Shown here piece by piece: positions 58,393 through 60,552 of a DNA stretch of 64,000 nt. The notes below the pieces were generated by a model that was given only the letters and a program-made list of their open reading frames with translations, made no database searches and was not told the origin of the DNA. Each line of letters starts with the position of its first letter. Position 1 is the stretch's first letter. The translations under genes were made by a program, and so were the position numbers. The stretch is taken from the NCBI RefSeq assembly GCF_003334255.1, contig NZ_QOWU01000019.1. One strand, 5' to 3'. The DNA is from Escherichia coli. GTDB lineage: Bacteria; Pseudomonadota; Gammaproteobacteria; Enterobacterales; Enterobacteriaceae.

Positions 58393-58921
58393 GCGAAAAC
58401 TGATGTAATGCAATGAAAAATAAAGGATTATTTTTCGAGTTGTCCACATATTGCCATGGCGTTCTAAATTTTTTTGGTGAGACTATCTCTGCTTGTTGTT
58501 TTCACCGCCAGGTTGTTAAACAAAAAAAGCCCACAGTTTTTACGCTGCGGGCTTTGTTTTTCTTTGTGACTTGCGTGTGAGGGTGCGACTTTCGACCGAA
58601 CCTTCGGCAACCGGATAGCGGGGGCTTTCACCCCCGCTGCGGTTTCTTACTGTTTACACTGCAAGAACGCCGCAAATTCTGACCACATGATGTTAAGTCT
58701 GAACTCACACGGCGAACGGTGTATCATCCAGATGGTCAACAACATGGTTAAGCATAAAATGCTCACGATGATCGTTTTTTGCGGCATAGCGCTTGACTCC
58801 TTTTACAGGGAGGCGCTAACCTTCCACTTGTCTAGGGTAGGAATGGTTAGGGCCTCGGGTTAAACAATATGTTTGACTCGGGGCCTTTTCACATCCGGCC
58901 TTCAGGTAATCCTTCCAGCCG

Positions 58922-59224
58922 TCAGCCGAAAGGCACCCGCGCGTAATGTACAGTTTTTGACTGGGAGGCGCAATCGCCCAGGGGTAGGCTGAGTTGATCC
59001 CTTCCCCGGTGGCATGATTTGAAAGCGTCTGCGGGGACGACTCCCCGTTCTTCGGTGGGTTGCGGACGGCATACGGTTCTCACGACAAACTCGTGCGTCA
59101 CAAAGGTGGCGCTGCATTCAATGTTGTTGCACTGGTAATATTTCTCCCTGATTGTTCCTGTATCGTTGGCGTCGCGGCTTGTTCTGGTGCGGGTACTTGC
59201 TCCGCAGTATGGGCAAGGATGCAT
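58922..59224 (-). CDS. ogr: Ogr/Delta-family zinc-finger late-gene activator (P2-like)
   Basis: MHPCPYCGASTRTRTSR…YYQCNNIECSATF matches the Cys4 zinc-finger pattern of P2 Ogr (CPxC…RTSR…QCxNxxCSATF); the ORF is longer (100 aa) than canonical Ogr (~72 aa). Confidence 0.75.
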   Translation of the reverse strand: MHPCPYCGASTRTRTSRDANDTGTIREKYYQCNNIECSATFVTHEFVVRTVCRPQPTEERGVVPADAFKSCHRGRDQLSLPLGDCASQSKTVHYARVPFG

Positions 59225-59265
59225 GATGGTCCCCCAGGCTGAAACGGGGTGGGCTCGCGCTCATT

Positions 59266-60411
59266 CTAGCCAGTTGTGGCGCGCTCTGCTATCCAGTCTG
59301 CGATTTTTGCTTCCAGCTCCAGTCTGGTGGTGAAGCCGCTGTCGTCGATGACGTGCTCAATGCGCGAAATAATCCAGTCCTGATTGTCAATGTCGCTCTT
59401 GAACCCGGATACCGTGCCGTGCATCTCTGGATACAGGTCGGCGCGTCCGCGCGCCAGCGTGATGCTGAATTCTGCTGCACCCCGCTGAAGTTGCTGCCAG
59501 CGTGCGGCAGCTGCGCGACGCGCGGCTTCTTCGTTCGGGTAGGTTTTTCTCAGCACATACACATTGCCTTCTGCGCCTTCCATGTATCCACCCTCCCGTG
59601 AACTGCTTTTCTCCGGCTTCTGTGTGGTTTTCGCGTTTCGCTTTTTCACGTTCACGGCCTTCTTCTGGCCGAACTTTAAATCCAGCCAGTAAGCTTTCAC
59701 TCCGGTATAGGCTTTTCTGTCAGCAATGCGAAAGCGATGACTGTCGCCATCCGAGCGGGTCAGGGCGAATGAGGGGAGGGCGCGCCCGCTGGCTGTCACA
59801 CCGCCACCCGGCAGAATGAACAGCAGGCACCCGTTTTTTACGGTGGTTATTGCACCCAGCATGTCAGCCATACGCGTGAGGAACGAGATGTCGCTTTCCT
59901 CTGTCTGGTCTGCATGGTCGATTTCGATATTCATCAGCATTTCGCTGATTTGTGCTTTCAGTCCGTAACGGTGCGCGATGGCAGATACCACACGCTCAAC
60001 GGTCACGTCATGCCAGGAGACTTCGCGTTTCACGTTAAACTCTTCGCGAAAATCCGCACTGTTCGCGGATATGGTCAGCTTATCCGGCGGACCTTCGTGG
60101 CTCACTTCGTCCACCACAAACGCCCCCTTGCGAGTGAGGCTTTCACCTTTCCATCCCATCGCCAGCGATAATCGTGTTCCGCGCTCCGGAAGTACCACCC
60201 CGCCGTCGGCGTCGTCGATTTCCAGTGTCACCCTGTCAGCCTCAAAACCCCTGTTGTCTGTCATGGTCAGGCTCATGATGCGCTGCGTGATGTTCTTCAG
60301 GCTGGCATCTTTCCCTTCCAGTGTGATAGTGAAGTCTGGCACCCTAACGGTATCTTCCGCTGCATCCAGTGCGCTGTTGATGTGATGTGTTACTGATTCA
60401 GTGATGCTCAT
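59266..60411 (-). CDS. Phage late control gene D protein (P2 gpD-like tail protein)
   Basis: 381 aa, length and position (immediately upstream of ogr, same strand) as in the P2 D-ogr arrangement; assignment from overall resemblance, not a search. Confidence 0.65.
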   Translation of the reverse strand: MSITESVTHHINSALDAAEDTVRVPDFTITLEGKDASLKNITQRIMSLTMTDNRGFEADRVTLEIDDADGGVVLPERGTRLSLAMGWKGESLTRKGAFVVDEVSHEGPPDKLTISANSADFREEFNVKREVSWHDVTVERVVSAIAHRYGLKAQISEMLMNIEIDHADQTEESDISFLTRMADMLGAITTVKNGCLLFILPGGGVTASGRALPSFALTRSDGDSHRFRIADRKAYTGVKAYWLDLKFGQKKAVNVKKRNAKTTQKPEKSSSREGGYMEGAEGNVYVLRKTYPNEEAARRAAAARWQQLQRGAAEFSITLARGRADLYPEMHGTVSGFKSDIDNQDWIISRIEHVIDDSGFTTRLELEAKIADWIAERATTG

Positions 60412-60552
60412 GATATCCCTCCCGTGTGCGTATCATCCCACGCGTACCTTGTCGTTTCTGTCCGGCTCTGTTGTAAAAAAATCCCCACAGCCCGCATCAG
60501 GTGAGGGCTGTGCGCCAATGGTGGATTATTCAGGCGAGCATAAACACAACTG

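What the first reader, a model, noticed from the sequence alone, without database searches (positions are those of the whole stretch)
58393..60552. P2-like prophage end next to ytfP, with non-canonical divergent D-ogr versus FI-FII-E-T arrangement
ogr and D are on the minus strand, reading toward ytfP, as expected for the right end of a reverse-oriented P2-type prophage. The sheath, tube, chaperone and tape-measure genes start only ~140 bp from D but on the opposite strand, and no gpU gene lies between T and D. In canonical P2 the order FI-FII-E-T-U-D-ogr is collinear. A minus-oriented terminator-like hairpin (cacagccc…gggctgtg followed by T7, ~60,470-60,515) sits in the D/FI intergenic region, as if a minus-strand gene once lay there. 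This suggests an inversion or module exchange, a decayed prophage, or a rearranged tail-like module.
Basis: partly seen in the sequence, partly recalled or inferred. Interest (0 to 1): 0.5.

Follow-up and report, generated by a model that had tools for sequence, protein, structure and literature searches.

The report
Ordinary P88-type P2-like prophage end
The odd-looking gene order is real, but it is the normal layout of a large, well-sampled branch of P2-like phages in which the sheath-to-gpU tail block is flipped, so it is not a sign of decay or recent rearrangement.

Summary
FI, FII, E/E' and T lie on the plus strand, 153 bp from D. The prophage sits in the ytfP terminator (17-bp att core, 58377-58393).

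The arrangement is not anomalous. gpU follows T just beyond the window. The closest complete E. coli genome (98.8% identical) carries a full 37-kb prophage ending in int next to chpS.

The same divergent order, U-T-E-FII-FI <-> D-ogr, occurs in:
- phages of four Peduoviridae genera (P88 and 520873, phiT5282H, ST16-OXA48phi5.4, 3LV2017) and Serratia phage KSP20;
- 80 of 80 IMG/VR relatives;
- roughly a fifth of complete E. coli genomes.

P2, Dagavirus, phiE202 and others with D at or below 53% identity are collinear. D and FI show the same identity split, so there was no module exchange.

The D/FI spacer looks like a bidirectional Ogr-dependent late promoter. One conserved GTTGT-N12-ACA box (60470-60489) has -10-like hexamers exactly 46 nt to each side. 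This is the geometry of P2's shared pP/pO site. The "terminator hairpin" overlaps this box. Its T7 run is the box spacer, and it is not conserved. Low interest.

The parts
58377..58393 (.). att core GCCACCTTCGGGTGGCG. It is the stem-loop of the ytfP terminator and marks the prophage boundary.
   Evidence: The same 17-mer lies at the other prophage end in the relative (L006 14301) and once in the K-12 ytfP-chpS spacer.
58394..58517 (.). Phage att arm specific to the ytfP-integrating variant.
   Evidence: Copies of the same late region (99.3% identical) integrated next to serS match only from window 58518 onward.
58526..58938 (-). hok/sok-type type I toxin-antitoxin moron. The hok CDS is 58647-58787, the sok-like leader is 58776-58938, and a terminator is at 58555-58526.
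   Evidence: PHROG 251 'MokW-like host killing', E 3.6e-19. Rfam sok RF01794 scores 44.7 bits, E 3.3e-8, below its gathering score. Terminator found by the scan and by folding, z = -4.3.
58922..59224 (-). ogr, the Ogr/Delta zinc-finger late-gene activator (100 aa).
   Evidence: Pfam PF04606, E 1.6e-15. 46% identical to P2 Ogr by tblastn.
59266..60411 (-). gene D, the tail/baseplate hub protein (381 aa).
   Evidence: Pfam PF05954. PHROG 52, E 1.7e-153. 48% identical to P2 gpD and 72-73% to P88, phiT5282H and KSP20.
60432..60437 (-). Predicted -10 (GATGAT) of a D promoter. The predicted start is near 60425.
   Evidence: It lies 46 nt from the box centre. A GA..AT-type hexamer sits at the same offset in 35 of 45 distinct relatives. 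This is inference, not mapped.
60470..60489 (.). Predicted Ogr-binding box GTTGT-N12-ACA, shared by the divergent D and FI promoters.
   Evidence: GTTGT is invariant in all 46 distinct D/FI spacers. The box lies 72.5-74.5 bp from the D ATG in the window, P88, phiT5282H and KSP20. The geometry equals P2's single annotated pO/pP activator site.
60486..60512 (.). It overlaps the right half of the box and the -35 region of the FI promoter.
   Evidence: -18.6 kcal/mol, z = -2.4. Not flagged as a terminator. Hairpin plus A7 occur only in the window, L007 (the same spacer sequence as the window), L001 and L008.
60524..60529 (+). Predicted -10 (GATTAT) of the FI (pF-type) promoter. The predicted start is near 60536.
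   Evidence: All 45 scored spacers carry a -10-like hexamer at exactly this offset: GATGAT, GATTAT or GAGGAT in 43, AATCAT or AAAGAT in 2. The box-to-ATG distance is 85 bp, against 83 bp for P2 pF.
60565..61758 (+). FI, tail sheath.
   Evidence: PHROG 23, E 3.7e-113. 46% identical to P2 FI and 73% to P88.
61758..62270 (+). FII, tail tube.
   Evidence: TIGR01611, 113 bits, cut-off 102.75.
62322..62857 (+). E and E+E', the tail assembly chaperones. A -1 slip site TTTTTTG lies at 62651-62657.
   Evidence: PHROG 103. Slippery heptamer and an open -1 frame ending at 62857. P2 has the same device.
62850..64000 (+). T, tape measure. This is the 5' part and it runs off the window.
   Evidence: 383 codons without a stop, 98% identical to the 943-aa T of the relative.

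Best explanation
This is the ogr/D end of a P2-like (Peduoviridae) prophage that shows no defect in the 5.5 kb visible here. It is integrated into the ytfP terminator.

It belongs to a clade in which the block pF-FI-FII-E/E'-T-U was inverted long ago and the inversion became fixed. The clade includes Xuanwuvirus, Novemvirus, Reipivirus, Reginaelenavirus and KSP20. D and ogr kept their original orientation.

Inferred mechanism: the inversion placed the dyad-symmetric Ogr-binding box of the FI promoter back-to-back with D. One box at 60470-60489 would now drive two divergent late promoters. FI-U would be transcribed rightward from about 60536, and D (reading on into ogr) leftward from about 60425. 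Each start would lie about 55 bp from the box centre. This is how P2's single site serves pP and pO.

Shown: gene identities, the arrangement and its distribution, the att core, and the conservation and spacing of the box and the -10-like hexamers. Inferred: Ogr binding, the transcription start sites, and that the window's own prophage is complete beyond base 64000.
For: Gene identities.

Completeness: the 98.8%-identical E. coli relative carries a full prophage with gpU after T, all P2 late genes, A, cox, C and int, and it ends at chpS. The att core is duplicated at both ends.

Same divergent order in phages: P88, phiT5282H, KSP20, 520873, ST16-OXA48phi5.4 and 3LV2017.

Same order in other collections: 80 of 80 IMG/VR loci. 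About three quarters of an even sample of the 1528 E. coli records that match the D-FI junction have D and sheath joined divergently.

Collinear controls, all with D at or below 53% identity: P2, Dagavirus, Kp4847-2, phiE202, Ralstonia YO006_4 and VP58.5.

Functional phages in the clade: KSP20 was isolated from an aquatic environment, and the closely related Serratia prophage PP4 releases particles (10.1101/850248).

Promoter model:
- GTTGT is invariant in 46 distinct spacers.
- The -10-like hexamers lie exactly 46 nt from the box centre on both sides.
- The P2 record annotates one activator site for pO and pP, with starts at -56 and +55 from its centre.
- The relative's O/P spacer has a matching dyad, GTTGTA-N10-TACAAC.
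Against: The window ends at 64000, so completeness of this particular copy is not shown.

The box pattern alone is not enriched: 2 matches in the window against 2.26 expected. Its identification rests on position and conservation.

The D-side -10 is weaker and shifts by 1-2 nt in about 10 of 45 distinct relatives.

No transcript mapping exists for any member of this clade, as far as my searches found.
Confidence: 0.87

Rival explanations
1. A recent inversion or a decaying prophage or tail-like remnant specific to this strain.
For: The order differs from P2. One deposited relative, 'phage 520873', is indeed decayed, with IS100 in the sheath gene and a fragmented D.
Against: The same order occurs in six deposited phages and in 80 of 80 IMG/VR loci. 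All visible ORFs are intact, including the E/E' slip site and 383 open codons of T. The nearest relative has a complete 37-kb prophage.
Confidence: 0.03
2. Module exchange: D-ogr came from a different phage lineage than FI-FII-E-T.
For: Phage genomes are mosaic. The int/att module of this prophage has evidently been swapped between the ytfP and serS variants.
Against: D and FI track each other against every comparator. To P88 they are 73% and 73% identical, to phiT5282H 72% and 67%, to KSP20 72% and 65%, and to P2 48% and 46%. gpU is 77% identical to P88 and 49% to P2.
Confidence: 0.03
3. The hairpin plus T7 is a working minus-strand terminator or insulator upstream of D. It could, for example, stop antisense transcripts arriving from FI.
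For: The stem is stable: -18.6 kcal/mol, z = -2.4. A T7 run follows on the minus strand. The stem is partly kept, through G-U pairs, in L008.
Against: The loop is 11 nt and the T-run starts 4 nt after the stem, so the terminator scan did not flag it. No minus-strand gene lies upstream. The T7 is the spacer of the conserved box. Hairpin and A-run are absent in L009 (93% D identity) and in all P88-type spacers.
Confidence: 0.08
4. The FI-U block is an actively invertible segment flipped by a site-specific invertase, like the Mu G or P1 C segments.
For: P88 and 520873 encode a DNA invertase immediately next to gpU.
Against: That invertase flanks duplicated tail-fibre genes, the usual host-range switch. 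The relative of this prophage has no invertase. No inverted repeats bracket the block. All 80 IMG/VR loci show one orientation.
Confidence: 0.02

Closest known systems
Escherichia phage P88 (Peduoviridae, Xuanwuvirus) and relatives: phiT5282H (Novemvirus), ST16-OXA48phi5.4 (Reipivirus), 3LV2017 (Reginaelenavirus), Serratia phage KSP20
   Same: Identical local order and strands: U-T-E'-E-FII-FI divergent from D-ogr. P88 also has hok next to ogr. D is 72-73% identical and FI 65-73%. The spacer carries the same GTTGT box at the same distance from the D ATG.
   Different: There is no nucleotide-level match to any deposited phage except the hok region, so it is not the same species or genus by DNA identity. 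T and E are only 29-48% identical. The box here is GTTGT-A7TCCCC-ACA, against GTTGT-CGCCGTGGCGGG-AGA in P88. This prophage has no tail-fibre invertase. Its att site differs (ytfP terminator).
Bacteriophage P2 (Peduovirus P2)
   Same: Homologues of ogr, D, FI, FII, E/E' (same TTTTTTG -1 frameshift), T and U. ogr lies at the prophage end next to att. Late promoters have an activator dyad about 55 bp upstream of the start. One site is shared by a divergent promoter pair, pP/pO.
   Different: P2 has FI-FII-E-T-U-D-ogr collinear in one F operon, with D as its last gene. Here FI-U is inverted, so D needs its own promoter. Identities are only 46-49% (E 29%, T 25%). P2 carries fun(Z) upstream of FI, whereas here D lies there.

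Membership tests
Peduoviridae (P2-like temperate myophages) | Homologues of the P2 tail-operon genes FI, FII, E, T, U and D | tested here: met
   tblastn identities to P2 are 46% (FI), 48% (FII), 29% (E), 25% (T), 49% (U) and 48% (D). PHROG and Pfam hits agree. U was tested in the 98.8%-identical relative, not in the window.
Peduoviridae (P2-like temperate myophages) | Ogr/Delta-type zinc-finger late activator next to the att end | tested here: met
   Pfam PF04606, E 1.6e-15. It lies about 530 bp from the att core.
Peduoviridae (P2-like temperate myophages) | E/E' programmed -1 frameshift upstream of T | tested here: met
   TTTTTTG at 62651, with an open -1 frame to 62857 that overlaps the T start. 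The frameshift itself was not demonstrated.
Peduoviridae (P2-like temperate myophages) | Complete head, lysis, baseplate, replication and integrase modules bounded by a duplicated att core | tested here: inconclusive
   Met in the relative NZ_CP116067. The window stops at 64000, so this is untested for this copy.
Genus Peduovirus (P2 proper) | Collinear FI-FII-E-T-U-D-ogr F operon | tested here: not met
   D and ogr are on the strand opposite to FI-T. P2 is collinear.
P88-type clade (Xuanwuvirus, Novemvirus, Reipivirus, Reginaelenavirus, KSP20) | Inverted FI-U block divergent from D-ogr, with a shared GTTGT box in the spacer | tested here: met
P88-type clade (Xuanwuvirus, Novemvirus, Reipivirus, Reginaelenavirus, KSP20) | Genus-level nucleotide similarity to a named genus. 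The ICTV criterion of about 70% identity over the genome is from my own knowledge. | tested here: not met
   Megablast of 58300-64000 against 50,697 phage records matched only the hok region. Whole-genome identity was not computed.
P2-type Ogr-dependent late promoter | Activator dyad (TGT-N12-ACA type) centred about 55 bp upstream of the start, with a -10 but a poor -35 | tested here: inconclusive
   The sequence and spacing fit on both sides. No transcript or binding data exist.

The most novel reading that the evidence does not exclude
The ancient inversion created a second bidirectional late promoter. A single Ogr dyad at 60470-60489 would drive FI-U one way and D-ogr the other. This would turn D from the last gene of the F operon into the first gene of its own Ogr-dependent transcript, which also feeds back on ogr. 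It would be a natural example of operon splitting that was tolerated because the activator site is symmetric. I found no paper describing it for this clade.
Probability: 0.6. Interest if true: 0.2.

Novelty: already known. Interest (0 to 1): 0.08.

Why it matters
It matters little. The result removes a false alarm. A divergent D|FI junction should not be taken as evidence of prophage decay or rearrangement, because it is the standard layout of a common branch of P2-like phages found in about a fifth of complete E. coli genomes.

The one mildly useful by-product is a testable model. This clade may reuse one symmetric Ogr site for two divergent late promoters, as P2 does at pP/pO. That would explain how D stayed under late control after the inversion.

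Tried and rejected
- Megablast against phages gave only hok matches, so protein-level searches were needed.
- NCBIfam was largely uninformative for D, FI, E and U.
- My first local tblastn used an FI query one base out of frame. It was redone in frame with the same result. The spacer coordinates are off by at most 1 nt at the FI end.
- Counting the box pattern in the window or in the relative shows no enrichment. The count is therefore not used as evidence.
- A search for inverted repeats flanking the FI-U block found none at the block ends. This rejects an active invertible segment.
- Literature searches (KSP20; P88 with P2-like, prophage and tail sheath; Xuanwuvirus; SEN4 with P88) found no paper discussing the inversion or late promoters of this clade. 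One search failed on a queue and one on term length.
- The Rfam Thr_leader hit at 58520-58643 (24.7 bits, E 0.09) is treated as chance.

Full report
**What is there**

The window is E. coli chromosome (tamA, tamB, ytfP) running into a P2-like prophage.
- a 46-aa Hok-family toxin, 58647-58787 (-);
- ogr, 58922-59224 (-), Pfam Ogr_Delta E 1.6e-15;
- D, 59266-60411 (-), Pfam Phage_GPD and PHROG 52 at E 1.7e-153;
- FI sheath, 60565-61758 (+), where the ORF's first ATG is 60553;
- FII tube, 61758-62270 (+), TIGR01611 above its cut-off;
- E, 62322-62702 (+);
- T, from 62850 (+).

E carries the P2-type slippery TTTTTTG at 62651, with an open -1 frame to 62857. T is open for all 383 codons to the window end. 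Nothing visible is damaged.

**Boundary**

I compared the window with the K-12 ytfP-chpS spacer and with the far end of the prophage in the closest relative. This gives a 17-bp att core, GCCACCTTCGGGTGGCG, at 58377-58393. It is the stem-loop of the ytfP terminator.

**The missing gpU and the rest of the phage**

Sixteen of 5426 complete E. coli genomes carry this late region over at least 80% of the 5.7-kb query; fourteen of these are at 97.9-99.3% identity and two at 89.8%. Two of them have it at ytfP. In NZ_CP116067 (98.8% identical) the prophage is complete. Its order is hok, ogr, D (-) | FI, FII, E, E', T, U (+) | G, H, I, J, W, V, S, R, lysis genes, X, L, M, N, O (-) | P, Q (+) | replication genes, cox, C, int | chpS. 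So gpU is not lost. It follows T just beyond base 64000. Relative to P2, the block FI-U is inverted, while D-ogr keeps the orientation of the other late genes. U and G converge on a stem-loop, CGCCCTG-GTGT-CAGGGCG, followed by a T-run on the plus strand; I read it as a terminator.

**Is the arrangement unusual? No**

The best protein matches to D among 50,697 phage records are Peduoviridae at 68-73% identity. I inspected six of them and all have U-T-E-FII-FI on one strand and D-ogr on the other:
- Escherichia phage P88 and 520873 (Xuanwuvirus);
- Enterobacter phage phiT5282H (Novemvirus);
- Klebsiella phage ST16-OXA48phi5.4 (Reipivirus);
- Klebsiella phage 3LV2017 (Reginaelenavirus);
- Serratia phage KSP20.

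All 80 IMG/VR loci retrieved with D (72-100% identity) are divergent, and none is collinear.

In E. coli, 1525 of 5426 complete genomes match a 1.2-kb probe across the junction. In an even sample of the ranking, 23 of 30 rows have D and sheath joined divergently with the same spacing, including ST131 EC958 and O26 strains. That is roughly a fifth of all genomes.

The collinear controls are P2, Dagavirus ST13-OXA48phi12.1, Kp4847-2, phiE202, Ralstonia YO006_4 and VP58.5. All have D at or below 53% identity. The split falls between 53% and 59% D identity. FI shows the same split: 65-73% identity within the divergent group against 45-46% for the five collinear Peduoviridae controls and 32% for the more distant VP58.5. 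D and the tail genes therefore share a history, and module exchange is not supported.

KSP20 was isolated from an aquatic environment, and the closely related Serratia prophage PP4 releases particles (10.1101/850248). The layout is therefore compatible with a working phage.

**How D is probably expressed**

In P2, D is the last gene of the F operon. After the inversion it needs a promoter.

I aligned 46 distinct D/FI spacers. The alignment shows:
- an invariant GTTGT that starts a GTTGT-N12-A(C/G)A box, at 60470-60489 in the window, with sequence GTTGTAAAAAAATCCCCACA;
- a conserved GTGA about 10 bp downstream of the box;
- -10-like hexamers.

On the FI side, all 45 scored spacers carry a -10-like hexamer exactly 46 nt from the box centre: GATGAT, GATTAT or GAGGAT in 43, and AATCAT or AAAGAT in 2. 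In the window it is GATTAT at 60524-60529. On the D side, 35 of 45 carry GACCAT or GATGAT at the mirror position, and the rest are shifted by 1-2 nt. In the window it is GATGAT at 60437-60432.

This predicts transcription starts near 60536 (+) and 60425 (-), each about 55 bp from the box centre. The P2 GenBank record annotates one activator site shared by pO and pP, centred at 3072, with mapped starts at 3016 and 3127. That is the same geometry. P2 pF has its site 83 bp from the FI ATG, against 85 bp here. The box is 72.5-74.5 bp from the D ATG in the window, P88, phiT5282H and KSP20. The relative's O/P spacer has a matching perfect dyad, GTTGTA-N10-TACAAC.

I therefore infer a bidirectional Ogr-dependent late promoter created by the inversion. 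This is inference. The bare pattern is not enriched, and there are no transcript data.

**The hairpin**

The hairpin is real: -18.6 kcal/mol, z = -2.4. However, it spans the right half-site of the box and the -35 region of the FI promoter, and its T7 is the A7 spacer of the box read on the other strand. The loop is 11 nt and the T-run begins 4 nt after the stem. The terminator scan did not call it, although it did call the hok and ytfP terminators. Hairpin plus A-run occur only in the window and its three closest relatives. They are gone at 93% D identity and in all P88-type spacers. No minus-strand gene lies upstream of it. A relic or functional terminator is unlikely.

No inverted repeats bracket the FI-U block, so active flipping is also unlikely.

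**Verdict**

The prophage is an ordinary member of the P88-type branch of Peduoviridae. It has no nucleotide-level match to any deposited phage, but it is already present in RefSeq E. coli genomes and in IMG/VR. Interest is low.

Noticed in passing
window 58526-58938 (-): A hok/sok-type type I toxin-antitoxin moron sits between the att site and ogr. The hok CDS is 58647-58787, the sok-like Rfam hit scores 44.7 bits (below the gathering score of 59), and a strong terminator lies at 58555-58526. hok lies next to ogr in 63 of the 88 sequences that contain D, including P88.
   Followed up: partly
window 58365-58400: Integration into the ytfP terminator keeps the stem-loop but replaces its T-tract. 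K-12 reads GGCGTTGTTTTTT, and the window reads GGCGCGAAAACTG. The 12 nt between the ytfP stop and the core also differ from K-12 (TAATAAAAGCAC against CCATATGCATAC), which gives a minus-strand terminator-like site. Whether this is strain polymorphism was not checked.
   Followed up: partly
window 58394-58517; L095 (NZ_CM129862): The same late region (99.3% identical) is integrated downstream of serS in 14 other E. coli genomes, with homology starting at window 58518. The 124 bp next to the core therefore belong to a swapped int/att module. Only 2 of 5426 genomes carry the phage at ytfP.
   Followed up: partly
L002 (P88) 1090-3238; L087 (520873) 2140-4247: P88 and 520873 carry a DNA invertase and a second, inverted set of tail-fibre and assembly genes directly beside gpU, a Mu G / P1 C-type host-range switch. 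The relative of this prophage has none.
   Followed up: no
L087 (NC_049344, 'Escherichia phage 520873') 8676-13074: This RefSeq 'complete phage genome' has IS100 inserted in the sheath gene, a split tape-measure gene and D in three fragments. It is a decayed prophage deposited as a phage and used as an ICTV exemplar.
   Followed up: no
L001 41189-41210: The O/P divergent spacer of the related prophage holds a perfect dyad, GTTGTA-N10-TACAAC. It lies about 81 bp from the O ATG and about 75 bp from the P ATG, and is probably the shared pO/pP activator site.
   Followed up: partly
NZ_AP045180.1 (strain JNEC-KY204), 2034618-2035818 and 4712922-4718619: This strain carries two related copies of this prophage type. 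One is at ytfP (98.7% identical). The other is elsewhere and is 100% identical to the window over the D/FI junction.
   Followed up: no
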